Shown piece after piece: positions 6,275 through 59,606 of a stretch of 64,000 nucleotides of DNA. Within the stretch, counting starts at the first letter, position 1; each line of letters begins with the position of its first letter. The position numbers and the translations under genes were made by a program. Under the pieces are notes generated by a model. It searched no databases. It saw only the letters and a program-made list of their open reading frames with translations, and was not told the DNA's origin. This DNA is from Monocercomonoides exilis PA203 (taxonomy: Eukaryota > Protista > Preaxostyla), in the NCBI GenBank assembly GCA_001643675.2, contig LSRY02000008.1, positions 186,001 to 250,000 of the forward strand, given 5' to 3'.

Positions 6275-6279
<5 letters not shown>

Positions 6280-9007
6280 CAGCAGGCTCCAGCAAGTTCT
6301 CCAGCCGCATCTGGCAGAACGGACACACCCCAACTTCTTCACTCCACTCGCTTCCACACTCCCTGTGAAACGAATGCCCACAATGAAACACCTTTGCGCT
6401 GGATGGCTCCAATGAATTGTGGCAGATTCCACACACGTCTGGCACAGCCACATTGTACAGAAGGGTCGGATGCATCTTGATGTTCTCCTTCGGCACTGCT
6501 TCGATCAACAGATGGATGTATTTGCCATTCACTTCTCCCTCTGGCACGCCTTCGAATGGAGTGAAACCTTCCTCTTCTGCCTCCTTCCACGGCTGGTGCG
6601 TCACCGTCCCGTCCTTCTTCACCGACGACACCCGCCAGCAGCACGAGACACAGCCCAGGCGCAGTTCATCGATCCTCTCCAGACAGCAAGGGCAGAAAGC
6701 GCCACTCTCAGCAAGATCGTACTGCCGCATGCCCCACCGGCAGATCACTCTCTGCCCACACCCGGGGCACCCTTCGTTGTGGCACGTGCCTTCGATGCAG
6801 ACACCACGCTCCTTCAGACGCCACAGCTGCGCCGCACTGCTCGCTGCCTGCTCCACAAGCACACCAGACGCTGTCACATCCACATACGCAAGATCACTCT
6901 CACTCATGTTGCTCATCTCACTCATCCCATTTGTACATCTCATCCCACTCGTTCTGCTTCTTTCACTGCCTTCATTTCTTTCATTCCTTTCTCTCCTTTC
7001 ACTCCATCCACATCTGCTTACAGACACCAGATACACCATTGATCCTGGCCCCACCCCAACATCCTTCAGCACGTGTGTGTCCTTCAGCAGCCTTCCTTCA
7101 AACATCATCCTCATCTGACTCACCTCCACTCCTTTCGCTTCTGCTCTCACTTTCTCTTTCACTTCCCTAACTGTCTCTGTCCCATTCACTTCCACTTCCA
7201 CTTCCACTTCCATCTCCTTCTCTATTCCCTTCTCCTTCCCTTCCTCCTTCTCCTCCTTCTCCTCCTTCTCCTTCTCTTTCTCCTTCTCTTTCTCCTTCTC
7301 CTTCTCCTTCTCCTTCTCCTTCTCCTTCTCCTTCTCCTTCTCCTCCTCATTTGCCATCCTTCCATTGATAATCTTCACACGCATCCCAAACCAGCCCTTC
7401 TTCCTCATCAGCAGCTGTATCATCTCCCCCTCTCCTATCCCACACTCCCTCAGCTCCACCTCGTCTGCCAGCTCCTTCTCTCTCCACACAATCTGCTGCT
7501 GCTCCACCAGAATCCCTTCCTTCTCAGCCACTTTCTCCTTCACATCCTTCACACGTGCCACTGCCATGTCCATCTCAAGCCGCAGCGTCTGCCCGCTGCT
7601 CGTCTTCACCAGCACCTCCCTTTTCACCCCTGTTTGCGCTCTCACCACAAAATAGATGAACGAATTCTTCCCAATCCCAGCGCTCGAGACAGTGGCTGAA
7701 TCGTCCAAGTCTTTGCCTTTGAAGACCAGACGCTGCAGCGCAGAGGGCGTGCCGTCTTTCTCACTCACTTTCCCTTTCAGCTCCCTCACAGTTGTATGCG
7801 GACACACATCGATTTTGTAGTTCTTTCCTGTCATCGCTTTCACAATGACACTGAAAATGCTGCTTTCCTTCTTCTGCGCATTGAGTGTGACTTCGCTCTT
7901 CAAGCTGAATGAAGAAATTGGCTTTTCGTCCTCCATCGGCTTCCCATCCATTGCGAGTTCAATCTCATCTGCGCTGATTCCCATTGAAGGTGCTAGCTTC
8001 TCTTTTATTTCTGCCACTTTCATTGTACCTTCAGCTTCAATGCAAACATTCTTTCCTGCTGCATACTCAATTTTCAATGTATATGTTTTTAATCGTTCTT
8101 CGTATTCTTGGCATGTTGATTTGACAATTGAAGGTTGTGAGCTCGAGGAAGGACAAATAGAAGAAGAAGTTGAGGAAGAGGAAGAGGAAGAGGAAGAGGA
8201 AGAGGAAGAGGAAGATGAAGAAGAAAAAAAAAGGAATGGAAGAGATCCATGTGCAGGAGAACACGCTGGAGAAATATGTTGATAAATGCAACATGACATC
8301 CCGCTTTGTCCACAGTAAGTCAGCTTAGAAACTAGCTTTTCCTCGATACTTTCCTGAAGCTCGAAATGTCCACTTTTCCATTTCCCAACAAATTTGGAGC
8401 CCATTTCTGATACAAGTGTCATTTGCCCCGAATAAATTTGTAAATCCTCAAATATGCGCATGGCTAAATACGCAACATCCATATGCGGCTTAACATTTTC
8501 AACAACAATTATTTTTCCTTTTGCTTCTTTTGTGCAAACAGTCACACGAACAGCAAATGGTTCAACGCAATGTAACCCTGAAGAAAAAATTTCTCCAGCA
8601 TGTGACAAATGACTTTCTGTGTCCAACATAACGGAAGCACCAGCATTTGAATGTTTTTGCTTGATAAGAAAAATAGGCTCTTGAGATGACTATCATTGAA
8701 TAAATCCATTCAAAATGTTTTTCTTTTAAAAAAAGGAATTAAATTGAATTATTAATATTACCTGATTAATGTTGAAAACTTTGGCATTATCACAAATTTT
8801 CCTTTGCTTTTGAGAAAAGCATAAATCTCTTTCATCCATATCATATTTATCAGCAAATCCTCTTTTTACCCCTTTCATCAAATCATTAGAATTTAGTAGT
8901 AGTGTAATATTTTCTCCTTTGAACGTGCAAAATCGAAATAATCTACTCAAATTTGACATTTTTCGTTTATCTCTTTTTTCGATTCCCATAACTTTATCAA
9001 AAAACAT
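6275..9007 (-). CDS. Multi-ubiquitin-like-domain protein with a Cys-rich domain and C-terminal RING-H2 finger (putative E3 ligase)
   Basis: Exon 1 (9007-8762) and exon 2 (8689-6275) are joined by a phase-0 GT-AG intron at 8761-8690. Four clear Ubl units (e.g. TTVRELKGKVSEKDGTPSALQRLVFKGKDLDD) plus two divergent N-terminal ones. RING-H2 is CGIC...CGHSFHREC...CPFC. Confidence 0.85.
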
Positions 9008-15325: not shown

Positions 15326-16083
15326 TCAGTTCTGCTTCTTTGCCTTGCTTTTCCCCTTTTTGCCTGTTTGCGCTTTTGCCTTCGGCTCCGCCTGTGGCTG
15401 CACCGACGACGCGTTTTTCGCCTTCCTGCTCCTTCCCTTCCACGGGTCCTTTCGCGGCAGCATCCGCGCCAGGTTCAGCGCCGGCATCACCAGCCACGGC
15501 ATGTTCAGCAGAATCACAAGCCTCAAGTTCTCCGGCCTGTGCACCCCATACACCTCCTCGCTCAGGATGCACAGCACATTGATGATCAGCGCGCTCGACC
15601 ACACGATGCTCACATCCCGGATCCACGCCCGCTTCCGCACAAACGCGTATATCGCAAAAACATAAAACGGCCCGAAAAACAGCGCATCCACCCATATCGT
15701 CGTCATCCAGAACGGCGGGCGCGCAATCAGCAGAGGGTCAAAGTTCTTCCCGTACCAGTGCACAAGGTCTGCCCAGCGCCGCCCCCGCCCAGTTTCCCAG
15801 CATGTGTTTTAAAAAGCCCGCAAAACATCACAATGAACTGCATCACCACCGAAAAAAACAAAGCACCCACACCTACCAAGCGCTTCGGAGGCCACCGCGG
15901 GTACTCGAAGTTCGACGGGTCTCTGATCGCAATCTGCTCGAAGTCTACAATATATGTTATCTGCGCCAAACACAGGTTAAGCTCATCGGCCCGCAGGACC
16001 AAACACGCTCAAAAACATACAAAAAACAGGTTGACCCCGAAGAACAAAACGAACACGTAATCTATCAGCCGCTGCAGCTTCAT
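15326..16083 (-). CDS. EXPERA-domain (TMEM97/TM6SF/EBP superfamily) membrane protein, 197 aa
   Basis: Exons 16083-16021, 15960-15873 and 15768-15326 splice in frame. Motifs include WYGKNFDPLL, IWVDALFFGPFY and NMPWLVMP; about four hydrophobic helices; C-terminal KKQN (KKxx). Confidence 0.8.
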
Positions 16084-16396: not shown

Positions 16397-17396
16397 TCAG
16401 GGCAGTGCCAGAGGCGGGTCGTTGCTTGTTGGCTGGGCTGGCGCCTCTTTGCCCAGCTCTCCAGCTTCTGGCATTGCTGGTGGCGAATATGCAATGTTGG
16501 CCGCCGGCTCTGCTGGATATGCTGCAGACACGTTCTGCACAACTGCCCCGCCAGTCGTGTACCCTGGTGCATATCCTGGTGCATATCCCTGTGCGTATCC
16601 TGGTGCGTATCCTGGCGCCTGGTTCGGGAACATGGCTGAGCGGAGAGCTCTCCGCGATCCATAGTTCACCCCTCCCCTGTTCCCCCGCCGCATCAGCAGG
16701 TCCATCTGGTGGAACTGCGCTGCCACCTGCACATCCCCCGGCCGAGTGCGCGCGATAAAGTCGTTGACCGCGCCGCTCAGCCTTTCCACATCGTCTGCCG
16801 AGAATGTCGACATCACAGAAACAAACACCCCGCTCTTCTTCACCACCCGCAGCCCCATCGAGCAGCACACCGGGCATGCAAACACCCCGCACATCTCCTC
16901 GAACCGCAGCTGCTGCTGCCGCATCTTCCGCACTCCGCAGCAGCAGCAGCAGCAGCTGTGCAGACACGTCCTCCGCTGCTCAATCCTCAGCACCTGCTCC
17001 CGGAAGTCTGCCACAAGCACTGCCTGCTTGTCCTGGCACATCAGCACCAGCCCAAACACCAGCGACACAATCGCAAACGCAAGAAACACCCCCAGAAACG
17101 CAACCCCCAGCAAAACGGTTATCAGCACCGTCCCGACCGTGAACAGCACCCCCAGCAGCAGCAAGATGAACGACAGCTGCCAGCACCCGCTTCCTGCGCC
17201 AGGCCATCCGCACGCACAAAGAAGGTCGCCAGCACACCCAATTATTAATCAAACACAAAACACATTTGCTGTGAAAAAACAACGAAAGCTCCTGAGATGA
17301 CAAACCTTTCCCAACTATTCGATCTGCAAATGCACCTTCCCCTTGCTGCACAGCAGGCTGTGCATTTAATGCGTTCTGTGCTTGTTGATTCATCAT
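16397..17396 (-). CDS. Two-TM membrane protein with poly-Cys tract and (APGY)n tail
   Basis: Exon 1 is 17396-17306, followed by a phase-1 intron at 17305-17194. Hydrophobic hairpin, then CCCCCC and CPVCC, then PGYAPGYAQGYAPGYAPGY. Confidence 0.7.
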
Positions 17397-20208
17397 TTAA
17401 ACTCGCTTCTGCAATAGATTATGAATTGCTCGATCACACCCAGCATTACTTGATTTTGGAGATAAAATTGATTAAAACATCAACTTTGAATATTGAATCA
17501 ATCATAAAGATAAGGAGATGTTTATGTTGTTTTATTGATATATAAATGTTGGAATTTCTTTTATTTTTTATTATTATTATTATTATTACTGCTGAAATCT
17601 TTTTTTTTTTTAACAGATTTTTTTGTAATAAAAAGAAAATGTTTTTTATTGTTTTGTCACCATTCTGCAATATTCTTGAAAATCAAATTGGTTCAAATGA
17701 ATGAAAATTTTTAGAAATTGAAAATTTTTTGTTTCAAAAAATAAATTTTTTAAAATTATAAAATCAATTTTCGATGATGTGATTTTTCATTTTCTGAATA
17801 AAAATTGAATGCTTGTTGTTTTCAATATTTTTCCAATTTTTATGATAAAAATTTGAATAAGTGTTTTTCTTATTGAAAAGTTGCAAATGCTCAATTTTCA
17901 GGTTTAAAAAAAATAGAAATTTTTTTCATGAACGTTTGTTTTTCTAAGGAAAAATGAACACTATATCTTATTGGGACAATGAAAAATTTCCAATGTTCAA
18001 TAACCAGCTATCTGTTCAATATTGAAAGTTCTATTGAAAGAATTCTAGGGAAAATGAATATATTCAATAACCCTGAAAACATACACATGCAACTTTTCAA
18101 AAAAAATTACATACATGTGGGACAAAATATTTGACTTCAGGCATTTTCATTAAAAAATTATGCATCTTGGATGATCTTTTTGTGATTAAATAATTTGAAG
18201 AAAATGGGTTTATTTTTTGAAATACGTTTGAGGAAGCAAAACATAATGTTATTATATAAATGATGTTTGTTTATAGATATGAAAATCATATTTATTTTGA
18301 AATCTGGCTAAGTTCAAAAATGTTGTAAGTGAAACAGTTTTTTCATGCTTTGTGCATAAAAAGCTTGAAAGCCCATATTTTCCCCCATGTGTTATTCCAT
18401 AATTTCTTATATATCTCTTTGATTGACAAATTTGATTCTTAAAAACAGAAATCGCTCAAAAGAAAAAATAAAAATAAATATAATCTTGAAATGACTTTTT
18501 TCACACAGAAAAATAAATGGAAACATAATTCAAGTCTGATTCAAATAGAAATAGAAAATAAAACGTATTTTGATTTGTGCAAGAATCACAAACATTTTCT
18601 CACAAACCTATTCAAATATTTAAATTCAGCAAACAAAAATATCAAGAACATGTTTTTTTTGACAATTTTTGGGTGATTATTATTGAAATCATGTTTATTC
18701 TGTCAAAATATTTTGTTTTTGAACTTGTTTTGCCTTCTTGTTTATGAACATTGGAAAGTGATTTCATTATCAACAAAAAATTTTTCATGAATGCATCTCA
18801 AACGAATGTTTTTGTGACAAATGCAATTCATAAAATATGGATATGATAGTTATCCAGCCATCCCCAAAAGCATATTTCAAATTCAACACACAGAAAAAAG
18901 TAATTATTATGAAAAAGAATAACCAGTGAATTCATTTCACAACAAAAAAGAATATCATTTCCTCCAACAAAAAGCAATTTGAAAATGTTAAAGAATAACA
19001 ATTTTTTTATTTTTTAGAAAAATTGAGAAAGAAAAAAATTAAATAAAATAATTGACTGTTTGCTATTATTCAAAAGATGTTTCTCATTTTTCCAAATATA
19101 TTATTTTTTATCATTAAGTATTTTTCATTAAAACTTCTGTTCCTTCATTATTTCAAACAAAAAAGGCAATCTTTGTTTCACTGTTTGTAATTCTGAGTGA
19201 AATGCACTTATTGTCTTTGAATCGCTGAAATGAAAAATAATGCTTCATAAACATCACCATTTGTTGCAAACACAGTTCAGGAAAGTTCCTTTTCGTTTCA
19301 ATCCTTCATCTTCCTCTTTTATTTTTCATTTATTCATGTTTTATTTCATTTGTTTATTTTTCTCTTTGTCTTTCTTTTCCTTTTCATCTTTTTGATAATC
19401 CTCTCATTTTCACAATTAATTTTTCGACTTTCACTTCTAATTCTGAATGATGCTGAGAATCACATTCATTTCCTGTCCATTTGCTCTGAACATTCACATT
19501 TTCCATTCAAACATCTTTTTTCTCTCTTTTCTCTCTTTTTCCCTTTCGCTTTTGTCTTTTCATTCAGCCATTTCTTTTCCAAAGGCAGCATTTCAGCCTC
19601 TCTTCAGAATATACATGTTCTCCATCAGAGTGAATGGCATTTATCTTTCCCTTCTCTTCTGCCATACACTCAGACACACACACACACGCACACTCACTCA
19701 CTCACTCAACTGTTGCTGTGACTGATACAAATGAATGCATCCCTGAGGAGATTTGAAATGTGAATGAAAAAATAAAAAAGAAATGACTTGGTTAAAAGAA
19801 ATGTCTGAATTCAATTTTTCGAATGTTTCTGAGAGTTTTGGTGCAAAAGCAAAAGAGCAGAAAATATAAGACTCATCATTAATTCACAGGTTTGCTATTT
19901 TTCACAACTTGGCTTTTCATTTTCATTCACTTATAATTTGTTAAATGAACGTCAAAAAAAATAAAAATATGAATAATTAATCTTGAATTTTTTTCTGTTT
20001 TGAAAAAATTGTTTGAATAACAAAATACCACACTGCCAAAAATCATGCAATCACTTTATGCTCATTTTCTTATTTATTTAAAAAATAAGTTTATTTCAAA
20101 ATATTACTAACATTTTTGATCATATATATAATAATTATTTGAAGACTTTTTTTTAAAGATTGACATTTTTTCTGCTTTTATTGCAGGGCGAGCAGCAAAA
20201 CTGAAGCG

Positions 20209-22677
20209 TTGAGCGGTAAAATAAGATATACAACAGATATGCAAAAATTGAAAAGTGATCCATTGAAAAGGGACAAGGATGGAAGAACAGAAGCAATGCG
20301 ATGGATTATTGAGAAAATGACAGAACCTCCGTTGAAAATGAGACATGAAACAACGCTTCATGATAAAAATGGTTGGACAATGGCAATGCTGTGGATTGGA
20401 TTTACCCATACGGAACCTCCACAATGGATGAGACATGAAAGTTCACTTCGCAACAATTATGGATCGACAATGGCAATGAAGTGGATTCAATTTGTGAAGA
20501 AAGACCCACCAATATGGATGAGACACGATAAAACTCTTGGTGATGAATATGGTGCAACAATGGCAATGATATGGATTCAATACGTTAAAACAGATCCTCC
20601 AGAATGGATGAGACATAATATTACACTTAGCAACAAATTTGGGTCAACCATGGCCATGCTATGGATTAATAATGTCAAAACAGAACCACCGGAATGGATG
20701 AGACATGATAATGCATTTCGCAACAATTATGATTTAACAATGGCTATGATATGGATTGAATGTGTGAAGACAGAACCACCGGAATGGATGAGGCACGATA
20801 AAACTCTTGGTGATGAATATGGTGCAACAATGGCAATGATATGGATTGCATTTTTGAAGACAGAACCACCAGAATGGATGAGACACGATATAACACTTGG
20901 AAAAAGAAGCTGCGGAACAATGTCCATGCATTGGATTGAATATGTAAAGACAGAACCTCCAGAATGGATGAGACACGATATTACAATAAAAGGAGCTATT
21001 TGGGAACGAACAATGGCCATGTTTTGGATTGAATATGTGAAGACAGATCCACCTGAATGGATGAGACATGATATAACACTTCGCAACAATTTTAAATCAA
21101 CGATGGCTATGTTGTGGATTCAATTTGTTCAAACAGAGCCACCCGAATGGATGAGGCATGATATTACTCTTGGAAATAAGAATGGAGAAACGATGGCAAT
21201 GAAGTGGATTGAATATGTCAAGACAGAGCCACCAGAATGGATGAGACACAACAATGAAATTGCTGACAAAGAAGGGCGGACAATGGCCATGCACTGGATT
21301 GCAATCGTCAAAACAGAACCTCCTTTATGGATGACAATGGATAACACACAAGGCAACAATGATGGGAGGACATTGTCAATGAAGTGGATTGAGGAGAAAA
21401 AGAAGGAACCTCCTGAGTGGATGAGGCATGATATTTCGCAAGTGGACAAGGATGGAAAAACAATGGCAATGTACTGGATAAAACATACAAAAACAGAGCC
21501 ACCAGAATGGATGAGACATGATATAACACTTGTTGATAATAACGGAAGAACAATGGCCATGATGTGGATCACAAACGTCAAGACAGCGCCTCCGGAATGG
21601 ATGAGACATGATATTACACTTGTTGATAATAACGGAAGAACAATGGCCATGATGTGGATTGAATATGTGAAGACAGAACCACCAATGTGGATGAGACATG
21701 ATATTACACTTCGCAACAATAATGGTGCAACGATGGCTATGTTGTGGATACGTGATGTTCAAACAGACCCACCTGAGTGGATGAGGCACGATATTTCACA
21801 AAAAGATAACAAAGGAGAAACAATTGCGATGAAATGGATTCAATATGTGAATTCAGAACCGTCAAAGTGGATGAGGCATGATATTTCGCAAGTGGACAAG
21901 GATGGAAAAACAATGGCCATGCAATGGATTTCAAATGTGAAAGCTGAATTACCAGAATGGATGACTCATGACATTACACTTCGCGATAGCGATGGAGAGA
22001 CAATGGCATTGTTGTGGATACGTGACGTTAAAACAGAACCATCTGAATGGATGAGACACGATGCAACACTTACTGATAAGGACGGATTTACAATGGCAAT
22101 GATATGGATTAAATATGTGAAGACAGAACCACCGGAATGGATGAGGCATGACATTACACTTCGCAACAATTTTGAATCAACAATGGCCATGCTGTGGATC
22201 AAATATGTGAAGACAGAGCCACCAGAGTGGATGGCTCATGAAATTACGCTTCGCGATAGCGATGGAGAAACAATTGCAATGAATTGGATTAAATATGTCA
22301 AAACTGAACCTCCTGAGTGGATGAGGCATGATAATGAACTTGCTGATAAAGAAGGACGGACAATGGCGATGAAGTGGATTCAGTTAACTGAAACTGAACC
22401 ACCAGAATGGATGAGACATAAAAATGAATTTAAGGATAAGGATGGAGAAACAATGGCAGATTATTGGGAAAGATTTGTTAAAAGCGAGGTACCGGAATGG
22501 ATGAAGTGTGATGAATTAATTTCCACTGATGAAGCTCTTGATGAAATTGATGTTGAAGTTTCAAGTGAAACTGATGATGAAGGGATGACAGAGATAATGG
22601 ATTTGATCAAAGAAATGTTACAAAAGCATCAGAACAGAAGTGGAAAGAAAATACACGTAGCGATAAAAGTCGAATAG
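20209..22677 (+). CDS. Tandem-repeat protein with 25 x 30-aa repeats (consensus GxTMAMxWIxxVKTEPPEWMRHDxxLxxxx), loosely ankyrin-like
   Basis: Intact 822-codon ORF; first ATG at 20239, with a possible acceptor AG at 20185-20186. The 90-bp periodicity spans about 20281-22510, followed by an acidic then basic C-terminal tail. Confidence 0.85.
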   Translation: MSGKIRYTTDMQKLKSDPLKRDKDGRTEAMRWIIEKMTEPPLKMRHETTLHDKNGWTMAMLWIGFTHTEPPQWMRHESSLRNNYGSTMAMKWIQFVKKDPPIWMRHDKTLGDEYGATMAMIWIQYVKTDPPEWMRHNITLSNKFGSTMAMLWINNVKTEPPEWMRHDNAFRNNYDLTMAMIWIECVKTEPPEWMRHDKTLGDEYGATMAMIWIAFLKTEPPEWMRHDITLGKRSCGTMSMHWIEYVKTEPPEWMRHDITIKGAIWERTMAMFWIEYVKTDPPEWMRHDITLRNNFKSTMAMLWIQFVQTEPPEWMRHDITLGNKNGETMAMKWIEYVKTEPPEWMRHNNEIADKEGRTMAMHWIAIVKTEPPLWMTMDNTQGNNDGRTLSMKWIEEKKKEPPEWMRHDISQVDKDGKTMAMYWIKHTKTEPPEWMRHDITLVDNNGRTMAMMWITNVKTAPPEWMRHDITLVDNNGRTMAMMWIEYVKTEPPMWMRHDITLRNNNGATMAMLWIRDVQTDPPEWMRHDISQKDNKGETIAMKWIQYVNSEPSKWMRHDISQVDKDGKTMAMQWISNVKAELPEWMTHDITLRDSDGETMALLWIRDVKTEPSEWMRHDATLTDKDGFTMAMIWIKYVKTEPPEWMRHDITLRNNFESTMAMLWIKYVKTEPPEWMAHEITLRDSDGETIAMNWIKYVKTEPPEWMRHDNELADKEGRTMAMKWIQLTETEPPEWMRHKNEFKDKDGETMADYWERFVKSEVPEWMKCDELISTDEALDEIDVEVSSETDDEGMTEIMDLIKEMLQKHQNRSGKKIHVAIKVE

Positions 22678-24048
22678 TGAAGGGAATAACGCAGATTTAT
22701 TGGTTGAAGTGAGATCCATTGCCATCACGAATGAAACAATGCATTTCAGCTGAAGACGAAGGCGAGAGGGCGAGAGTTGAATTAGATACACCAGAAATGG
22801 AAGAAGACTGATAATACCGCAAGAGTGATTGAATCATTTGCATTGAAGATATTATTTCTGAAGCATTGAGCAAACGAACCAACAAATTTGCATGTGTGTA
22901 AATAAAGGCTGTTTAGCAACATTTCTAAATTCATGATTTTTCTTTTTTTTCTTCTCTCCTTCTTTGAAGGCACTTTTTCTGTTTCAACAAATACTTGGAC
23001 ATGCTTCGAAGATATCTCATTTTGATCTCCTTTCGATTTGCTTTCGATTGTTTTTTCATTTCAGCAGAACAATTGAAGCTGTTCATTTCAAAGTTTTTAT
23101 TTTTGTTGATTTTTCAAAATATATCTTTTCAATTTTTATTTGATTTTGTAAACAATGAATGACAAGCTCAATTCAAATCATCTTATTTTCTTTCTTTCTT
23201 TTCTTCTTCTTCTTTCTTTCTCTCATTTTTTCAATTTGCCAACGTAACCGAAAATTCACTTTGGCATTTTGAAAATGAAATGAGCATTTCTGTGATTTGG
23301 AGTTGAGAGAACTGTTATTTTCGGTTGTTGTGCTTTGACGATTTTGTTGCAGCCATTTTGATCAGATTCAACAGTTGCGATTCAGTTAATTATTGAGTCA
23401 TATCTGTTCATTTTTTGGAATTGAAAGTGTTTCGTTGCTGTCTTGCAAAAAACGCAGGACGTTCTCAAAGACAACATGAACTTTGACATTCAGATGCTTC
23501 ATTTGATTTCACACGAAGTGACGATTTTGAGAAAGACATAACAAATATCTGTCAGTGTCACATTAATGATTTATAAAAAAAAGCTTCGAAGAAATACACA
23601 TTTTTATATCGCATTGACAAATCACATTACACAATAATATGGGGAAAAATTTTTTCCTTTAGGACTTATGTTCCACCCATTATTTAAAAATTATATTTTC
23701 AATATTCTTTATTGTTTATTTCAGAATGTTTATTTATTCAATATCAAACAATATTAATATCTGTTTCGAATCCAATTATTTTCATTTTTTAAGTTTTTTT
23801 ATCAGAAAAAAATTATAACTCACTTTCCTGGGAAACTAATTCTGAGCCCAAACTCTGCAAGTTATTTTCTTTTTTAAAAAAATTGAAAATAACAGGATAG
23901 AATTAGTCTAGCTCTCAACCTTGATTTTTTGAAAAAAATTAAGGAATCATTGAGAAAGCAAAAGTGAGTTACAATTTTTTTTCGAATATGAAATATTTTT
24001 GCAAATAAGTTTTATTCATTTGGAGTTTATTTGAAAAATTTGACAATC

Positions 24049-24090
<42 letters not shown>

Positions 24091-24091
24091 A

Positions 24092-24723
24092 TTAATAATC
24101 AGTAATAATCACATCATCATCACTCACATCCATTTCAATTGAATCAGAACAACACATACCATCATACCTTTTATCGGAAACAGAATCAGCGAAACAGTCT
24201 TCAAGTGGTTGGCTAAATAATAAAGAATCAAAGGAATTAAAATCTGAATTATTATTATATGAAAAAGAATTTGAATTAATTGATGATTCTGAAAAAGAAC
24301 ATACCTGAGACATACCTGAGCTGTTCTTCACGTAGTCGAGTCTGTTAATAAACATAGAATTAGAATAAAAATTATCATTAAAATTATTTAACTTTTCATA
24401 GTTTTTCTTTTCAATTAATTTTAATCGGTTTTCTATCACTTTTTTCACATTTTTTCCGAATTTTCCTTTTTTCACACTATAAATTTCATTCAAATCATTT
24501 TCTTTTCTTTTAAATATCTTTCTAATTCTTTTATCTTCCACCATTTTTTCTTTACACATCATTTCATCCATCTCTTTTTCATCAAATGTGCTAAGAGCAG
24601 CCGAACAAAGTTTTCCATCATTATTTGAGAAATGCAAATAATTTTTCATTCCATTGAGAGTTAGCTCTCCCCAAATAGTATTTTCCATTTCTGTGTGTCT
24701 GAAAATTTTAATTAATTAATTAA

Positions 24724-24767
<44 letters not shown>

Positions 24768-27700
24768 AAAATTGAGTCAAATACTTTAAAAAGAAATGCT
24801 CCGTATTGCATTTTGTTTCAATTGATTTTGTCAATTGCAAAGAAGAAGCCGATGCTGACGAAGAAGAAGCTGATTCAAAAGAAGAAATATTTCTTTCAGA
24901 CAAAAAAATAGTTGAATTGTCGGAATCGATATTAAATAAATAAGTATGAAAATAACAACAATAAAAATCTATTAAATCATAAATAGTGTTAATTTCTTTG
25001 TTTCTTAAATAATGATTCAAAATGTTTGTTAACAATCCAAACTCACTGTCACAGTCGTTTTTACCGTGATGTTCGGCAAAAAACGACAATGAACAATGTT
25101 TGTTTTTAAACAAAATTGAATTTGGAGAAAACAATGAATACAAAATATGCGAATTACGGAAATGTGGACCATTATCACAAAAAAAAACAAAAATTATTAA
25201 CCTTCATAAAAATATCAAAACGTAACAATTTATTCAAACATTCCAAAACAAAACGGTAATCATGAGATAAAATCTCAGAAAAAAAATTAAAACAACATTT
25301 TTTCATTTTTCCATAATTATCAAGACAATACACAACAAAACATAAATGAGAAATCTGTTTCTTTTCAAAAAAACTTCTTCCAGTTTCATTAAAAGAAATT
25401 GGGAGAGACCAATTTTCTTTAAAATCCATTAATATAACACATTCATTCATTTTCAAATTATTTCTTTTAAAATTAAAAAAGTCTCTCTGGCTTTGTGCCA
25501 TTTTCTTATGCTCATTTATCAATCTTATTTCTTCTTTTTCTTCCTCTTTCAACTCTTTCTTGTTTTTTCTCAATTCTTTTTCTTTGTTTGTTAAAAAATC
25601 TCCTCTCACACACAACTCACAAAGATCAGTACGTTTTTTTGCTTTTTTGAAGTTTTTTGTCTTTTTGCAGAAAGAAGAATAAGACATTTTTATTTCAACT
25701 TCTTTTTTCATATCAGAATATAATTCTTTTTTTGTTTTCTCAATAATTCTTTTTTCTGAGAAGGAGAATATTTTTTCTTTGTTAAATTTTTGATATCCTT
25801 AGTTTTTTTCTTTATTATTAATATCTTCTTTATTTTTTTCTTCATTGTTTTTATCTTCTTTATTTTTTTCTTCATTGTTTTTATCTTCTTTATTTTTTTC
25901 TTCATTGTTTTTATCTTCTTTATTTTTTTCTTCATTGTTTTTATCTTCTTTATTTTTTTCTTCATTGTTTTTATCTTCTTTATTTTTTTCTTCATTGTTT
26001 TTATCTTCTTTATTTTTTTCTTCATTGTTTTTATCTTCTTTATTTTTTTCTTCATTGTTTTTATCTTCTTTATTTTTTTCTTCATTGTTTTTATCTTCTT
26101 TATTTTTTTCTTCATTGTTTTTATCTTCTTTATTTTTTTCTTCATTGTTTTTATCTTCTTTATTTTTTTCTTCATTGTTTTTATCTTCTTTATTTTTTTC
26201 TTCATTGTTTTTATCTTCTTTATTTTTTTCTTCATTGTTTTTATCTTCTTTATTTTTTTCTTCATTGTTTTTATCTTCTTTATTTTTTTCTTCATTGTTT
26301 TTATCTTCTTTATTTTTTTCTTCATTGTTTTTATCTTCTTTATTTTTTTCTTCATTGTTTTTATCTTCTTTATTTTTTTCTTCATTGTTTTTATCTTCTT
26401 TATTTTTTTCTTCATTGTTTTTATCTTCTTTATTTTTTTCTTCATTGTTTTTATCTTCTTTATTTTTTTCTTCATTGTTTTTATCTTCTTTATTTTTTTC
26501 TTCATTGTTTTTATCTTCTTTATTTTTTTCTTCATTGTTTTTATCTTCTTTATTTTTTTCTTCATTGTTTTTATCTTCTTTATTTTTTTCTTCATTGTTT
26601 TTATCTTCTTTATTTTTTTCTTCATTGTTTTTATCTTCTTTATTTTTTTCTTCATTGTTTTTATCTTCTTTATTTTTTTCTTCATTGTTTTTATCTTCTT
26701 TATTTTTTTCTTCATTGTTTTTATCTTCTTTATTTTTTTCTTCATTGTTTTTATCTTCTTTATTTTTTTCTTCATTGTTTTTATCTTCTTTATTTTTTTC
26801 TTCATTGTTTTTATCTTCTTTATTTTTTTCTTCATTGTTTTTATCTTCTTTATTTTTTTCTTCATTGTTTTTATCTTCTTTATTTTTTTCTTCATTGTTT
26901 TTATCTTCTTTATTTTTTTCTTCATTGTTTTTATCTTCTTTATTTTTTTCTTCATTGTTTTTATCTTCTTTATTTTTTTCTTCATTGTTTTTATCTTCTT
27001 TATTTTTTTCTTCATTGTTTTTATCTTCTTTATTTTTTTCTTCATTGTTTTTATCTTCTTTATTTTTTTCTGCGATATAAAATACAGAATAGATTTTTAT
27101 TAATAAGAAATATTATTGAAGAAGAAAGGATCACACTTTTTTTTGAAATTCTATCGTTTTGACAACTACAAGAACTATGGGCTAAAAGCCAACTTTCTGC
27201 CAATGTGAAATCATTTGCTTTTTAAGAAAGAAAGAAATAAAGAAAGAAAAAGAAAAATAGAAAATTTAACACATTTCATATAAGAAAATCAAACCTTTTT
27301 GTAAGCTTTTTTCTGACATTTCAAACTGTTTTTCTTCGTTTGGATCACAATGTTTTCTTCTTGAGTAATAATACTCTGCTTTCGTAATATTCCATCCGGA
27401 GTTTTGCAACTCCTGGAAGGAAAAATCAGAAGAAACTGAGTTCAAAATGCAGACTTTGGCATTGGTTTTTGACGAATTGTACAGCTACAATAATTTGTTT
27501 AATATGTTCGTGGTTTTTTCTTTATATGCGAAGAAATCATAAAAAATTGAAAGATAAAATAAACCAATGGATCACAATGAAATAAGTGAAAATAAAATTA
27601 AAAACAAACTATTAAAGAGAGCAAAAATCTCATCGCGAAACGGTTTTCCTTTTTTGGAGTGGTATAGGAAATTTAAAAAACACCCTTTGGGGTCATCTTC

Positions 27701-27793
27701 CGCAAGATATATCAATAAGTCGTAGATTTTTGTAGAATGACGGCTTTTTGTGGAACGAGGACGAAGAGAATAATCATTTTTTCCAGTCTGCAT
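24092..27793 (-). mobile_element. Intron-containing Sola-like (DDD) transposase gene, disrupted
   Basis: Motifs TDLCELC, MDFKEN, SEILSHD, CDNGPHFRN and FFAEHHGKNDCD. At least four GT-AG introns restore one frame. Lesions: TAG at 27485-27487, TAA at 25799-25801, and one extra base in the A9 run at 25179-25187. TIRs were not identified. Confidence 0.7.
25822..27070. repeat. Perfect 30-bp minisatellite, about 41.5 copies (TATCTTCTTTATTTTTTTCTTCATTGTTTT)
   Basis: Directly visible. It reads (EDKNNEEKNK)n in the spliced transposase frame on the minus strand. Confidence 0.97.
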
Positions 27794-28140
27794 CTGATTA
27801 TTTGGATAATGGTTTTAATACCTTCATAAGTTTTTTTCAAACATTGATTTCACTTTTTAACCTTCTTCTTCTCCTGCTTTTTCTTTTGGGTGATTTCTTT
27901 ATTGCACATGAACTCACTTTTTTTGTATATCGCAGGATTATATTTTCATTCAAAATATCGCAGCCGATGTATCGTCGTAAGTTTTGTAATATTATACCAA
28001 ATTGAAGTTTCGTGCAGTTTACAATATCATCTTTTTTTTTTGCAGAAAATCAATGAAAATATCTGCTTGTTCCAATGTTAATAAGAAAAAACCTTACTCT
28101 TCAGCAGTGCTTTAACTTGCATGCGTGCAACTTAACAGTG

Positions 28141-29010
28141 TACACAAGCATCTCAAACATTCTCAGGCTGTCGCAGATCATCAATCAAAGTTCTTCGCGA
28201 ATATAATTTAAGGTGCGTCATCCTTATTCATTTGTTCTCATGGAACCAAAACCGTATCTGAATGAAATCAAAGAGATAATTCAATATCATCAGGTGCTTC
28301 AGAATCTGACACGACTTGCGTACCAGTCTGCTTGGGAGCTTTTGATCAAGAGGTTACACGAAGAAAGAGAGCTGGAGTGTGTTATTGGGAATGAAATGCA
28401 TTTTGTGAGAGAAGTTAAAAGAGAATTTGAAGAGTTGGCAAGAAATGTGGATTTGAAGAGAGAGAAAGAAGGAATAGGAAAAAATAGGAAAAGAAGAGAA
28501 AAAAGAGCTTATTATATTGAGATGGATCGTAACATTGAAGATTTATTTTTGCTGTTGTCGGTCGAGGAATGAAGAATACGTTGGTCTTTTCAGCAGAATT
28601 GTTCATGTGTCTCGAGCGGCAAGAGAAAATCAAAGAGAGATTTGCGATTGGGTGCATTTATTCCTTGAGAATTGCAGCAGAAAGAACAGTTGTGAAAGAT
28701 GAAGCGCTTCTTTGTGACGGAGCTGTTGATGCTGTTTTGGAGTGGATACAGCGTCCAACATTGGATGACAAGATGGCATATGAATGCTTCACATTTTTTC
28801 AAAATTTTTTATTGGAGATTTAAAGTTGAGGAGAAAGATGAAATAGAAGAAGCGAAAAGAAAAGAGATGAAAAGGAAAGCGCTTGAAAAGATGGAAGAAG
28901 AAGGATACGAGGATTGTATCATCGGATTGCGCTGTTACATTAACAAGGGGGAATTTGGGGAAAATATTTTGTTAATAATAGAAGAATTGTTTGTTCGTGT
29001 TAGAATATAA
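28141..29010 (+). pseudogene. 5'-truncated, frameshifted member of an expanded helical-repeat gene family
   Basis: Three overlapping ORF fragments (YLNEIKEIIQYHQ...AYQSAW; GAVDAVLE; KRKALEKMEEEGYED) that join only through frameshifts or stops. Confidence 0.65.
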
Positions 29011-30411
29011 AAATAGTTTATTGATTATTTTTTTTTTTGTCTTTTCACTTCATTCATCTTTGAATAATTCATTTGTCCTCTTTTTTTAATGTTCGAGATA
29101 AAAAGATTTGCATGTTCATGAATGATGTTTTTCTGAAATGTCAATCAAAAGATTAAAAACAAAAACTTAATAATGCGTTTTATTTATCAAAAATGAGTGT
29201 CGATGAAAGATTATTATTTCTCAAGTTTGTATATTTTCTCGATTGTTAAATTCTTACAAAAATCTTGCTGTTCTTCAGACAAAATCACTAGCCTGCAAAG
29301 AAGCACCAGAAGATTGTTAACAGAAGATGTCTTGTTCATTCCCCATTCCCACTCCTATTCCTCTCCCACTGCTTTCAATGCTGTTGTTGTTGCTTTTTTT
29401 GCTATTTGCAGAATCACTTGATCCACCTTTATTATCACTTGCATAAGGACTTCTATTATCTTCACAATTTCTATTGCTATTCTCAGTTTCATTAGCATAG
29501 ATGTGAGAAGAGAGCGAGTCTGCTGAGTAATTCGTCACAACAGCACAAAACAAGGAGGCAGCTTCACTGGTGAGAAGGATGAGATGGGCATTGAAACGAG
29601 TATTGGTCGATACAACAACAGAAATTGGGACTGATAATCTGAGTAGAGCACGAAAGAGAGATTAAAGATTTTCAGCTGCACTGCGGCTGAGAATCTGTCG
29701 AGGAAGATGGACAGGTGCTAGAAGGCAAGAGTTGAGGGAGAAGAAGACGAGGAAGAGAAAGACCATGAAGAAGATGATGATTTAAAAGGGAAGCCCGAAG
29801 AAGAAGATATGGAGAAAAAGCAGTGACAGCAAAAGAAAACGAAGAAGATGAAGATTACATAGGAGACGAATGAGGGAAAAAATGGAGGAATAGAAATAAT
29901 GAGATGCGCTCAGAACAGCAGTGGATGGAATTGATGATGCCTGTGATAAAGACGAAGGAGAAAACGGAGGAGAGCGCAACGACACAGGCGACACTGGAGA
30001 CATTAGAGACACCGGTGATGAAAGCTATACAGGAGAGATCGAAGAAGACTGAAAATGTGAAAGGGAATGTGTGGATGTGTTGACAGCTTTCGCAGGCTCA
30101 GAAAGTGCATCCAGATAGCGCAATGGATCAGGACGAGAGGGAAATGCAGCATTGCCTGTCTTTTGGAGTGATGTCGATTAATGCACACTGCACACAGCGG
30201 CAGCCGACATGCTTTGTATTGTGGTGTTTGTGGTGTTACCAGCAGTTGACACACTTTTCGCTGATGTCATTTCCATCTTCCCACTCCTTCCTCTCCTTCC
30301 TCTCCTTCCTCTCCTTCCTCCTCTTCTTCTTCTCCTTCTTCTTCTCTTTCTTCTTCTTTTTCTTCTCAACAAGACAGCAGACTGCAGCGAAACAAAAAAG
30401 GAGAGAAAGAA

Positions 30412-47897: not shown

Positions 47898-48649
47898 TGA
47901 GGTGTTGATGATATTGAGACTTGTTATTTCACAGGCGAAATAATTGCATATTGAATTTTCGGCATATGTGTAACTGCGTCCCTTTTGTAATTCTTGTTTT
48001 TAGACATTAATTTTGTGATATTTGAAATGCAAAAATTATTTAAAAACTTTTGTATGGACTGGTTTTTCGAAAAATTTTTTGTTTCTCATGAAAAAACCAT
48101 TTTTAAAAATGACCCATAAATATGAGTATTTTTACAAATTTTCAATAAAATAAGATAATTATGAAACAAAAAGTAGATGAAACGTTATTAATTATTATAT
48201 ACTCTTATTTTATTGATAATTTTTCAAAAAATAAAACATTAAAAAAAATAAATTATAAAATTAAAATATTTTGATCAATCCCACAATTAAATTTTTAATA
48301 TCAAAAAAATAAAAAATTAGTTTCTTTCATCGTGAATTGAACCCTCGTTTGCGAACATATAACGAATCATATATATAAATATAGTTTTAAAGTGTGTGAT
48401 AAATAATTATCAATATATCATTCAAATCTTTATGAATTTTGTTTATGATTTTTAATATGAAAATTTTAGTGCAGTTTGAGGATGTTTATGTTACACAATT
48501 ATGATCATGAATAAAGAAGAACGAACAAATCGTGTGAAACATTCTTTTTAATTATTAACATTGTTTTATTAAAATTTTTCGCAAAACACATTAAATATCA
48601 TTTATTTTCTTATGAAATTAAATAGATGCTAAATGATAAGCATTAATCA

Positions 48650-50649
48650 ATGCAGCAACATAAATGCGTATGGAGGAATGGTGTATTTTCAACAATAGAG
48701 ATCGTGAAGTTTTGGTTTATATCTATTGAAGAAAAGTTCAATGCCACAACAGCAACAGTTGGAAATGAATTTTTTGTTGAATATTTCAACATCTCAACGC
48801 AGATCAATGAAAGCCAATTCCAGTTTGATTTTCGAGAAGGAAACTTCAATCAATTCAATGCAATATATGGAGGTGACAGTTGTGAACACAAAGAATACAC
48901 AAATCTGATTGGATTTGTAACGATTCATCAAAGTGACACAATCATTGTGAGCAGCGTGAATGGAACGAATGACAGACAACGTGGAACAAACACACTTTCA
49001 TGTGATTCAATTGAACGGGGTTTGATTCACTTGACATCAGAGCTGATAAGTCAGATTCTCATTGTTGAAGAGAGTGTGATTGGAGGAGATATAAATCCGA
49101 ATGAGATGGGTTTTAAAGGGGGAGAAGGAATGGAGAAAAACACATCTCTGCGGATATTGGATGAGGGATGCAATTGGGAGGAATAGCGAGTGAAAGAGGA
49201 TCATCATTTTTCATCCCTGTCTTGGAAGAAGTGAAGAGCACAACACAGGCGAGTGGGAGCATGGACTTGAGCATTCGTGGGAAGCTGCTTCTTCCTCACA
49301 AATTGTCACAAGAGATAAGTATGAAAGATGGGGATGAAGAGGAGATTGTGAGAAAAGGGATTGAAGAAGAAGGGTTTGTGTCAGAGAATGAGATTCACTC
49401 AGTTATTTCATGTTCAGAATGGGAGAAAGTGAGAGAAGAGACAGAAGTGAGTGTGTGGGTTGTGTTTGGGAAAGCAGATTCACTGTCATCAACAGACCGA
49501 TTTATTGTGAAGAACAAGAGTGAAAGTATTGGAAAAGGAGATGAAAGGATTGTTGAAGGAGGGAAAGAAGGGAAGTCTTCTTTGTTGTTGATTATTATTG
49601 TGCTTGTTGTGATATTATTGATAATTCTTATCTCACTTGTGATATTTGTTGTCAGATGGAGAAAGGCAAAGAATGAAAACAAAGATCTGAGAGAGATTGT
49701 GAATGACACTGTGAGGAAGGATCCGAAGGCATTCGAGATGGTGACGATGGAGATGTCACCAGAGGAGAAGTGGAGGAGAGCGGAGAGAGAGGCAGAGAAG
49801 AAGAATGAAGAAAGGATAAAGAAAAGAATATATGAGACGAATATGGAACATTCAGAGTCATCTGAGCATCTTCTGTCAGAGAGCGGATCGACTGAATACA
49901 TATTGGGAAGAGATTCAGACAAAATTCCTGATTGGGCATTGGAAAAGGTGGATGAAAAGGAAGAGGAGGAAGAAGCAAGAAAGAGATCGCCTTCACCTTC
50001 CATTTCATCCAATTGTTCAACTGATTCAGACTCAACGTTTGTTCGATCGGAGAGTCTGTGCCCAACCACCTCATCTATGTCAAACTTAGTGGATGCAATG
50101 GCCTGTTCATTACCCCACGAGAAGCTGATTGTGGATTTGAGGGATTCACTGTTCATGCTGCTGCATGGAAGGAACGAGAAGAAAGAGATGGCGATTGGCT
50201 CATTGAAGGAGAGAGAACAAACAGCTGCCCAAATCCTGTTCTGTGTGGCGAATCTCGCACTCCACTCCGTTGACGAGATGGAAAATCCTCTCTCATCTCT
50301 TGCCAATCTCAGCCCACACATTGTGTTGTTCTCTGAGCACATGGTGATCTGCATTGCCCTCCACTCCGACTTCTCATCTGACGATGATTCCGATTCCTCA
50401 TCCATCTCCTCGTCAACTGTTGCGACATCTGCCAGTGATGAGGAGGAGGAGGAGGAGGACTCTCTGCCCTCGTCTGCCTTTGAGGATGAGGATGACAATT
50501 TCAAGAAGGAGTGCCTGAGGTGGAAGGCGCCAGAGCTGATGATGAACAAGAAGATGGGAGCAACAAAGGAATCAGTTGTGTTTTCGCTTGGGATGATGTT
50601 GTGGGAGTGCTTGACACTCAAAGTTCCGTTTGGGGAGGATTCAGCATAA
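48650..50649 (+). pseudogene. Receptor-like tyrosine-kinase-type pseudokinase, truncated and frameshifted (left arm)
   Basis: TM helix LLLIIIVLVVILLIILISLVIFVVRWRK; kinase subdomain VIII/IX motifs LRWKAPE and VFSLGMMLWECLT..PF; no HRD or DFG. Frameshift near 49175 and premature TAA at 50647. Confidence 0.8.
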
Positions 50650-51399
50650 GCAGCTGGGCAGAAGATTTTGAATGGAGAGAGATCGAATGTGAAAAAAGTC
50701 GAGTGGTTTCGACTGAAAGGAATGGTGGAAAAAAGTGTTCTGGTTCAGATGCCAGGCAGAGTATCATTTTCAGAAATGAAAGGAGAATTTATTTGGTAAT
50801 TACTTGCGAAGGCAGCAATGCTGATAGTGTCAAATGCGATGTGCTATGCAGGGGGAATTTGAGAAGAAAGAATCGATTTCTTTGCTCAAAAAGACAACAG
50901 AATAGTGGAGTGTGTTCTGATAGATGAGCACAAAGACATTATCGTTGTTGGCAACGGGAACAGCACAAACAACAAAAGCGATAGAAATTGAAAAGACAAT
51001 TTTGAAACAAATGAAATGTGTATTTGTGAGTGCATTTATGCATGGATCGTTGCATGAAAATATATACCTCAAATCGAACTGAAATGAGATGATGTTTATT
51101 ATTGTTTCGAATTTGTATAATCGTTTCGTTGGACTAACTCTTTAATTATATATTAATTGATGAATCAAATTGATGCTATGAATAAACCACAAGCATTTTT
51201 TGAATTTTCATTTTTTTGATGTGTTTTGAAACAACAAAAAAATGTGCAAATAATATTTAAATAAAATATATTTTTCTTTCTTTAAAAATTCAAAATGAAA
51301 AAGTGCATATTTCACTCGAAAACATAAAAAAAGAGAGCCATTATTAATATATATTAATTCAAATTTTTAAAACTTTTGCAAAGTCGATCCATATCACAA

Positions 51400-59345: not shown

Positions 59346-59606
59346 ATGACCCAAAAATGGAGGAAAAAATGGAACTGCCGGAAAAAGAGAGCGAATAACG
59401 ATCCAGCAATTGATGATAATAGTGGAATTACAATGGCTATGCAATGGATTTCGAATGTGAAAGCTGAATTACCAGAATGGATGTCTCATGACATTTCACT
59501 TAGAAATAAGTTGGGAGAAACAATGACAATGATGTGGATTGCGGTTGTCAAAACAAATCCACCAAAATGGATGAGACATAAAATAACACATGGAACAGAA
59601 AAATGA
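59346..59606 (+). pseudogene. Two-repeat fragment of the 30-aa repeat protein family
   Basis: TMAMQWISNVKAELPEWMSHDISLRN is nearly identical, also at DNA level, to repeat 19 of the 20209-22677 gene. Confidence 0.8.

What the first reader, a model, noticed from the sequence alone, without database searches (positions are those of the whole stretch)
20281..22510. 25 x 30-aa repeat protein with a fixed scaffold and hypervariable positions (TALE/PPR-like logic)
Seen: near-invariant TMAM-x-WI-xx-VKTEPPEWMRHD scaffold. Position 7 varies widely (L,K,I,H,F,Y,M,Q,N), as does the di-residue at 10-11 (GF,QF,QY,NN,EC,AF,EY,AI,EE,KH,TN,RD,SN,KY,QL) and the loop after HD. The ORF is intact in a region where most coding sequence is decayed. 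There is no signal peptide or TM segment; the tail is acidic and then basic. The DxxGxT start is ankyrin-like, but the 30-aa period and PPEWMRH half are not canonical ankyrin (33 aa). Inference: a modular recognition solenoid, possibly with a per-repeat code for nucleic acid or protein.
Basis: partly seen in the sequence, partly recalled or inferred. Interest (0 to 1): 0.78.

Follow-up and report, generated by a model that had tools for sequence, protein, structure and literature searches.

The report
Shortened ankyrin repeats, shuffled binding face
A single-celled eukaryote has an intact gene for 25 short repeats that are predicted to fold like ankyrin, a common protein-gripping module, with the variable residues on ankyrin's usual gripping face, so it is likely a protein binder from an unnamed family that also occurs beside likely virus shell genes, not a DNA-reading code.

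Summary
In detail: an intact ORF (20239-22677, +) with 25 repeats, 24 of 30 aa and one of 31. The TALE/PPR-like code is not supported. Folded with 114 aligned rows, six repeats give an ankyrin-type solenoid (pLDDT 95; best matches are ankyrins and DARPins) whose outer helix is cut to one turn. Profile alignment fixes the register: the variable positions are ankyrin 2, 3, 5, 10, 13, 14 and 33, the known binding face (PMC4308713). Scaffold dN/dS is 0.11; the variable sites give about 0.75, so positive selection is not shown. Half-repeats are mosaic. The repeat defines a family without a name in the Pfam copy held: 226 representatives; 14 of 161 fetched end in a RING finger; 2 of 13 metagenome loci lie beside a likely Polinton-like-virus capsid gene. 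The host holds many diverged copies, flanks included. Best reading: a shortened-ankyrin protein binder, ligand unknown, possibly of viral origin. New variant of a known kind.

The parts
20239..22677 (+). Intact ORF, 812 aa from the first ATG (822 aa from TTG 20209); almost wholly repeats
   Evidence: contigs of RNA libraries identical to parts of it, e.g. 21685-22077 with 0 differences in X5, X6, X7
20272..20361 (+). First unit, likely N-terminal capping repeat (KRDxxGRTEAMxWI type); its best matches among 161 relatives are the first repeats of the small proteins P0013 and P0155
20362..22434 (+). 23 internal repeats of 30 aa (one of 31 aa); predicted shortened ankyrin repeats; variable at positions 2, 3, 5, 10, 13, 14, 30 (= ankyrin 33) and 27
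22435..22524 (+). Last unit, likely C-terminal capping repeat (TMADYWERFV; relatives end their arrays with a similar polar unit)
   Evidence: capping role inferred
22525..22677 (+). 50-aa tail, acidic then basic; no RING finger (relatives often carry one at this place)
19240..24000 (.). Gene plus non-coding flanks, present as many diverged copies in the DNA run X1; left edge approximate, right edge not reached; no terminal inverted repeats found
59385..59606 (+). Second, two-repeat fragment of the same family (up to 81% nucleotide identity), just downstream of a broken DDE_1 transposase; no long ORF

Best explanation
The gene encodes 25 repeats that are predicted to stack into an ankyrin-type solenoid with a shortened outer helix, and it likely binds a protein partner along one long groove formed by the variable residues. 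Shown from sequence: the array, the fixed scaffold under purifying selection, the match of the variable positions to ankyrin positions 2, 3, 5, 10, 13, 14 and 33, and mosaic half-repeats. Predicted: each unit is a hairpin loop (DxxGxT), an inner helix (positions 7-15) and a Pro-Pro-led single helical turn (21-23) in place of the outer helix, three residues shorter than ankyrin; the conserved M/W residues would form the core. Inferred: new specificities arise by exchange of half-repeats within and between the many copies in the genome; binding is combinatorial over neighbouring repeats, as in DARPins, not one repeat per base; relatives with a C-terminal RING would use the same array to choose substrates for ubiquitination, while this RING-less copy would act as adaptor, decoy or inhibitor. 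The ligand is unknown. An origin in Polinton-like viruses of anaerobic protists is plausible but rests on 2 loci.
For: Fold: five of five models at pLDDT 94-95 with a 114-row alignment; Foldseek PDB best E 4e-7, 273 matches at E<=0.001, listed rows are ankyrins and DARPins; VIA best Z 14.0, rmsd 3.8 A over 176 of 180 residues, IkB-alpha; the Atlas's independent model (pLDDT 0.82) has only ankyrin clusters in its 10 structure rows, TM 0.44-0.58. Sequence bridge: 2 of 41 relatives of this divergent type pass the Pfam Ank_2 cut-off (P0006, P0026), a canonical ankyrin protein is retrieved at E 3.8e-9 (P0140), and HHalign aligns positions 1-24 one to one with a 3-residue gap after them, score 26.0 against 4.9-10.9 for 40 shuffled controls. 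Variable sites: with PMC4308713 (passages). Selection: scaffold dN/dS 0.11. Mosaicism: identical tracts of 54, 52 and 44 nt between units that average 69.5% identity; the 6 unit pairs closest on the hairpin side differ at helix-side synonymous sites as much as all 231 pairs (pS 0.77 against 0.68). RING fusions: 14 of 161 relatives by pattern, 12 of 114 alignment rows by Pfam. Many copies: 18, 12 and 13 contigs of X1 carry another letter at 19747, 19958 and 20335.
Against: The single-sequence model of 10 repeats was a beta-solenoid at pLDDT 74 in 2 of 5 models; both folds are predictions. The protein itself has no Pfam ankyrin hit at E<=1, TM-scores to solved ankyrins are only 0.3-0.6, and the tool warns that Z near 13 can be a common arrangement for repeats. 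dN/dS at variable sites is 0.72-0.77 with bootstrap ranges up to 0.99-1.13 and near-saturated synonymous sites, so relaxed constraint explains the variation as well as diversifying selection does. The variable sites are mildly basic and aromatic (42 K+R, 26 D+E, 26 F/W/Y of 168), which would also suit a nucleic acid. No ligand, no protein-level evidence. RNA evidence is contigs from one study and cannot show strand or exclude DNA. No capsid gene in the window.
Confidence: 0.72

Rival explanations
1. Passenger of a mobile or virus-derived element: the gene came in with a Polinton-like virus or rides in a transposable unit, and its many copies reflect spread of the element; the variable sites are merely tolerant surface positions and the host makes no use of the diversity. 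(Compatible with the ankyrin fold; it differs in why the copies and the variation exist.)
For: Non-coding flanks are multi-copy along with the gene; a second broken fragment lies beside a DDE_1 transposase remnant; 2 of 13 metagenome loci have a capsid-like neighbour; the ORF has lower GC3 (0.37) than four host genes (0.44-0.58); variable-site dN/dS is compatible with 1.
Against: Scaffold dN/dS 0.11 with synonymous divergence near saturation means long-lasting selection on the protein; 25 repeats against 1-12 in 158 relatives suggests growth of the array in this lineage; no capsid gene in the window.
Confidence: 0.3
2. Sequence-specific nucleic-acid reader with a per-repeat code: positions 10, 13 and 14 of each repeat would read one base, giving a 23-25 nt site.
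For: Long regular array with a near-invariant scaffold; variable sites are net basic and aromatic-rich; basic patch in the tail; selected DARPins can bind G-quadruplex DNA (PMC4132713, search listing and start of abstract only), so the fold does not forbid it.
Against: In TALEs the repeats are nearly identical apart from two adjacent residues (PMC3098256, passage); here 7-8 positions vary, with 17 di-residues and 24 different 10/13/14 triplets in 25 repeats, far more than a four-base code needs; the array is net acidic; most relatives have 2-6 repeats, too few for a specific site; RING fusions point to protein substrates; the variable sites are the ordinary ankyrin ones.
Confidence: 0.07
3. 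The repeat is a two-stranded beta-solenoid (fibre or structural protein), and the ankyrin likeness is limited to the DxxGxT turn.
For: Single-sequence AlphaFold2 model of 10 repeats: all-beta, pLDDT 74, pTM 0.79.
Against: Only 2 of 5 single-sequence models reached that confidence; with an alignment all five models are helical at 94-95; the Atlas model is ankyrin-like too; relatives pass the ankyrin Pfam cut-off.
Confidence: 0.04

Closest known systems
Ankyrin repeat (Pfam PF00023/PF12796) and designed ankyrin repeat proteins (DARPins; ANK-N5C library, PMC4308713, passages read)
   Same: D/N-x-x-G-x-T start, inner helix, stacked solenoid (predicted), apparent N- and C-caps, and variable residues at positions 2, 3, 5, 10, 13, (14), 33 on one face.
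   Different: 30 instead of 33 aa; TPLH replaced by TMAM; no Gly after the inner helix; outer helix reduced to one turn after Pro-Pro; two conserved Trp per repeat; not detected by Pfam ankyrin models in this protein.
ANK repeats with high internal conservation in fungal NLRs (Dyrka et al. 2014, PMC4986451, passages read)
   Same: Conserved scaffold, polymorphic sites on inner helix and hairpin of the concave face, repeat shuffling within a gene family.
   Different: No NACHT/NB-ARC or effector domain; units are about 61% identical, not above 85%; positive selection is shown there and not here.
Ankyrin-RING E3 ligases (e.g. XB3/XBAT, Mind bomb) and poxvirus ankyrin-F-box adaptors
   Same: Ankyrin-type array as substrate-binding module joined to ubiquitin-ligase machinery, seen in 14 of 161 relatives.
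   Different: The window's protein has no RING; the repeat type differs; ligase activity untested.
Metamonada-group Maverick-Polinton / Polinton-like viruses (Bellas et al. 2023, PMC10120064; bioRxiv 10.64898/2026.06.19.733378; passages read)
   Same: Two loci put a small member of the repeat family next to a likely capsid gene whose relatives occur in the parabasalid Histomonas meleagridis.
   Different: The word 'ankyrin' does not occur in the main text of either paper (supplements not read); the window's copy has no capsid gene nearby.
TAL effectors (PMC3098256, passage read) and PPR proteins (recalled)
   Same: Long tandem array with a constant scaffold and variable residues.
   Different: Period, sequence, number of variable positions and net charge all differ; no Pfam match.

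Membership tests
Canonical ankyrin repeat (PF00023) | 33-residue period | tested here: not met
   30 aa in 23 of 24 spacings; across relatives 272 of 539 spacings are 30 aa and 15 of 539 are 33 aa
Canonical ankyrin repeat (PF00023) | GxTPLH motif and Gly after the inner helix (PMC9611651, PMC4308713) | tested here: not met
   DxxGxT is kept; PLH is MAM; position 15 is mostly Val
Canonical ankyrin repeat (PF00023) | Score above Pfam's curated cut-off | tested here: not met
   No ankyrin model at E<=1 for this protein; Ank_2 cut-off passed by 2 of 41 relatives of the divergent type, and by the canonical P0140
Ankyrin-fold superfamily (works like an ankyrin) | Stacked hairpin plus inner helix plus outer segment solenoid | tested here: met
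   Predicted only: pLDDT 95; Foldseek and VIA matches to ankyrins, Z 14.0, rmsd 3.8 A over 176 residues; outer helix is one turn
Ankyrin-fold superfamily (works like an ankyrin) | Sequence profile homology in register with ankyrin | tested here: met
   HHalign probability 78%, score 26.0 against at most 10.9 in 40 shuffles; one ankyrin template stretch only
Ankyrin-fold superfamily (works like an ankyrin) | Variable residues at positions 2, 3, 5, 10, 13, 14, 33 (binding face) | tested here: met
   The six highest-entropy positions are 13, 10, 14, 30(=33), 5, 3; P = 2.4e-4 against the six positions of PMC4308713
Ankyrin-fold superfamily (works like an ankyrin) | Binds a protein partner through the concave face | not testable with these tools
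   No candidate partner; no complex was modelled
TAL effector | 33-35-aa repeats nearly identical except residues 12-13 | tested here: not met
   30-aa period; mean unit identity 61%; 7-8 variable positions; 17 di-residues in 25 units
TAL effector | TALE superhelical fold | tested here: inconclusive
   The fold lists are filled by ankyrins; no direct comparison with a TALE structure was made
TAL effector | One-repeat-one-base DNA binding | not testable with these tools
   Needs SELEX or EMSA
PPR protein | 35-aa helical-hairpin repeat matching PPR profiles (recalled) | tested here: not met
   30-aa period; no PPR model among the Pfam rows at E<=1
Fungal NLR with highly conserved ANK repeats | NACHT/NB-ARC domain before the repeats | tested here: not met
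   Only 11 residues precede the array and 50 follow it; no such Pfam hit
Fungal NLR with highly conserved ANK repeats | Positive selection at binding-face positions | tested here: inconclusive
Ankyrin-RING E3 ligase | C-terminal RING finger | tested here: not met
   Absent in the window's protein; present in 14 of 161 relatives
Gene of an endogenous Polinton-like virus | Capsid and other viral genes within the same 15-30 kb element, terminal inverted repeats | tested here: not met
   A profile of 60 capsid-like relatives hits L007 and L014 but nothing in the window; no convincing inverted ends among the 25 longest of 751 pairs in 17000-30000

The most novel reading that the evidence does not exclude
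A natural DARPin-like repertoire in anaerobic protists: Polinton-like viruses carry arrays of small 30-aa-ankyrin binders, some fused to RING fingers as programmable degraders of host or giant-virus proteins, and this host has captured the gene, lengthened it to 25 repeats and multiplied it into tens of copies that diversify by half-repeat shuffling, serving as an intracellular recognition system.
Probability: 0.2. Interest if true: 0.75.

Novelty: new variant of a known kind. Interest (0 to 1): 0.42.

Why it matters
It adds an uncatalogued, compact ankyrin variant (30 aa, outer helix replaced by a Pro-Pro turn) that standard ankyrin profiles miss, so such genes are annotated as hypothetical. 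Its constant scaffold with caps and a variable face is a ready natural counterpart of DARPin libraries and a possible engineering scaffold. The RING fusions and the capsid-gene neighbours suggest a role in conflicts between anaerobic protists and their viruses, which is little studied. It does not offer a new programmable DNA/RNA-binding code on present evidence.

Tried and rejected
No whole genome is held for this window, so paralogues could not be collected and dN/dS across paralogues could not be computed. Pfam, NCBIfam, PHROGs and PDB-sequence searches give no credible family for the protein itself (weak rows far below their cut-offs); a PDB search with the alignment found mainly RINGs from the relatives and one ankyrin at E 0.16. 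One relative (P0013) carries a precomputed PF26802 label that the Pfam copy here did not return; its name is unknown to me, so a newer Pfam entry may already cover part of this family. The beta-solenoid model was set aside after the alignment-based model. No TALE, PPR or PUF entry appears among the rows shown by the fold searches, which does not exclude them. IMG/VR scans: nothing or one 17-residue match in a phage contig, taken as chance; GTDB: one short match at E 2e-4, taken as chance; the phage collection gave only a 21%-identity match in one Sulfolobales virus, probably compositional. An upstream exon giving an MG- start like P0013/P0054/P0155 (MGTGSS...) was considered because an AG at 20185-20186 is followed by an in-frame xASSK; no ATGGG donor was found upstream and no RNA joint was listed, so it is unsupported. 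RNA contigs do not cover 18500-19235 or 23468-24000 in three runs while the DNA run does; this is only a weak control. Summed contig depth is not a copy number, so no count of copies is claimed. Literature: no paper held three of six terms on divergent ankyrins in protists or Polintons; searches listed nothing describing this repeat; one search was uninformative; only the open library was searched and no supplements were read (those of PMC10120064 may annotate such genes). No complex was modelled because no partner is known.

Full report
Observation. The ORF runs 20209/20239-22677 on the + strand. Splitting at the TMAMxW anchor gives 25 units between 20272 and 22524; 23 of 24 spacings are 30 aa and one is 31. 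Counting from the D of DxxGxT over the 24 thirty-residue units, entropy is highest at positions 13 (3.0 bits), 10 (2.95), 14 (2.74), 30 (2.70), 5 (2.67), 3 (2.49), 27 (2.01) and 2 (1.85); T6, W11 and M23 are invariant. The window is eukaryotic: it holds a PABP-like gene, a ubiquitin-RING gene, membrane kinases, an EXPERA-domain gene and transposase remnants. The lineage was not determined by any search; the gene style recalls anaerobic metamonad protists (recalled impression only).

Family. The protein has no credible Pfam, NCBIfam, PHROGs or PDB-sequence match. It has 226 relatives at E<=0.001 among 1.84 billion representatives, 128 at 1e-10, and further ones; 161 were fetched. A repeat profile finds 697 units in 158 of 160 of them (P0140 left out), 1-12 per protein, with 272 of 539 spacings of 30 aa and 15 of 33 aa. 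Many are short contig products, and longer proteins were not searched separately, so 25 is the longest array seen, not proven the longest. Fourteen of 161 end in a RING pattern; Pfam confirms RINGs in 12 of the 114 rows of alignment A1, of which 99 are relatives. Named sources are almost absent (JGI 'hypothetical protein').

Fold. A single-sequence model of ten repeats was a beta-solenoid at pLDDT 74, reached by 2 of 5 models. With the 114-row alignment six repeats fold at pLDDT 94-95 in all five models, with a helix at positions 7-15 and a three-residue turn at 21-23 of each repeat and no strands. Foldseek finds 273 PDB matches at E<=0.001, the listed rows being ankyrin proteins and DARPins (best E 4e-7, TM about 0.5); viral matches are mostly annotated ankyrin proteins; VIA gives Z 14.0, rmsd 3.8 A over 176 residues to IkB-alpha (with its warning that Z near 13 can be generic for repeats). 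The Atlas's own model of the protein (pLDDT 0.82) has ankyrin clusters in all 10 structure rows. Sequence agrees: P0006 and P0026 pass the Ank_2 cut-off (2 of 41 scanned, besides the canonical P0140), and an 88-sequence profile of two-repeat pieces aligns to a two-repeat stretch of P0140 with positions 1-24 one to one and three ankyrin residues missing after them (score 26.0; 40 shuffles 4.9-10.9). So unit position 30 is ankyrin 33. It fails the canonical tests (period, TPLH, Pfam cut-off) and is best called an ankyrin-derived variant.

Variable sites. The designed library of PMC4308713 (passages) uses DxxGxTPLHxAAxNG...x, randomising 2, 3, 5, 10, 13 and 33, states that these form a continuous binding surface on the beta-turn and helix 1, and lists 14 among positions of relatively high entropy. 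Five of the six most variable positions here are among those six (P = 2.4e-4) and the sixth is 14. TALE repeats are nearly identical except residues 12-13 (PMC3098256, passage); here there are 17 di-residues and 24 distinct 10/13/14 triplets in 25 units and the array is net acidic (91 K+R, 114 D+E), although the variable sites alone are mildly basic (42 against 26 of 168).

Evolution of the array. Over 22 internal units (first, last and the 31-aa unit left out), scaffold dN/dS is 0.11; variable sites give 0.72-0.77 (bootstrap 5-95%: 0.56-1.13 for 10/13/14, 0.53-0.99 for 2/3/5/30) with pS 0.62, near saturation. The protein is constrained; positive selection is neither shown nor excluded. Units average 69.5% nucleotide identity yet share exact tracts of 54, 52 and 44 nt, two of them between non-adjacent units; these tracts cover the hairpin side and stop at or just before positions 10-14. 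The six pairs most alike on the hairpin side are as diverged at helix-side synonymous sites as all 231 pairs (0.77 against 0.68). This indicates exchange of half-repeats, as described for fungal NLR repeats (PMC4986451, passages).

Genomic setting. A two-repeat fragment lies at 59385-59606 beside a broken DDE_1 transposase. In DNA run X1 (possibly the window's own source), non-coding flanks and gene are covered by many slightly different contigs: 18, 12 and 13 contigs carry another letter at 19747, 19958 and 20335, and exact-match contigs have depths of 30-48 against summed depths above 1,600 at 19825-20094. The tool cautions that depth is no copy number; many diverged copies with their flanks is the inference. 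No element ends were found. Four RNA runs of one study hold 32-43% of the words, with contigs identical to this copy, e.g. 393-399 nt at 21679/21685-22077 in three runs; contigs cannot show strand or exclude DNA.

Relatives' context. Thirteen metagenome loci were retrieved. At least 7 of 13 carry two or three repeat genes close together with short T-rich leaders. L007 places one next to a 574-aa ORF with 222 relatives, including Histomonas meleagridis proteins at 43% over full length; the Atlas scores such a relative 0.97-0.98 to clusters that include one with Capsid_N in 24% of members. A profile of these proteins also hits a cut ORF in L014 (E 4e-6) and nothing in the other loci or the window. 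Bellas et al. describe a Metamonada group of endogenous Polinton-like capsids in parabasalids and Streblomastix (PMC10120064, passages; also bioRxiv 10.64898/2026.06.19.733378). The capsid identity was not confirmed by a fold, and most loci are 1-3 kb, so the link is a lead: 2 of 13. The family was not convincingly found in GTDB genomes or IMG/VR.

Mechanism and verdict. Most likely (0.72) a shortened-ankyrin solenoid that binds protein along one groove, diversified by half-repeat exchange; RING-bearing relatives would be E3 substrate selectors and this copy an adaptor, decoy or inhibitor. A passenger origin with neutral variation (0.3, partly compatible) and a nucleic-acid code (0.07) are the rivals. 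Other papers seen: PMC9611651 (passages), bioRxiv 10.1101/2024.03.23.586382 (passages; no mention of ankyrin), PMC12220804 (passages), PMC4132713 (search listing only). No supplements were read. Earlier scan notes held nothing on this sequence; one search gave only other ankyrin cases. New variant of a known kind; interest 0.42.

Noticed in passing
L007:873-4999 (-) and L014:2136-2543 (+): Likely Polinton-like-virus gene blocks: a 574-aa capsid-like ORF of a large unannotated family (222 relatives, some in Histomonas meleagridis), preceded by a coiled-coil ORF and small amphipathic ORFs; no Pfam, NCBIfam or PHROGs match.
   Followed up: partly
L013:899-1381, L014:112-582; P0013: Small members of the repeat family start with MGTGSS/MGTFGS, an N-myristoylation-like start (motif recalled), 3 of 161 relatives.
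   Followed up: partly
L006:693-1358: A repeat gene sits in a 47% GC contig between bacterial-looking ORFs; may be a chimeric contig or a transfer.
   Followed up: no
window 25803-27071: 42 near-perfect copies of a 30-nt unit (99% match), open in several frames, on the minus strand reading (MKKKIKKIKT)n, upstream of a 178-aa ORF (25175-25711, -) that looks transposase-like from recall but has no Pfam hit.
   Followed up: no
window 24055-24088: Run of 34 A just beyond the multi-copy flank of the repeat gene; could be a retroposition tail or a plain homopolymer.
   Followed up: no
window 48600-50675 (+) and 53311-55500 (-): Inverted duplicate of a membrane-kinase gene (95.8% over 2,075 nt); the + copy has an earlier stop in the kinase domain; an ISXO2-like transposase remnant appears between them by eye and another scores at 56232-56948.
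   Followed up: partly
window 6275-8629 (-): 784-aa ORF with four ubiquitin-like stretches and a C-terminal RING finger.
   Followed up: no
window 15326-16083 (-): EXPERA (EBP/TMEM97-like) domain gene that appears to have two short GT-AG introns; several splice choices give an open frame.
   Followed up: partly
P0006, P0057: Longer relatives (714 and 535 aa) in which the repeats follow an unrelated N-terminal region and drift towards ankyrin (DxxGxTAMMxWI), bridging the two repeat types.
   Followed up: partly
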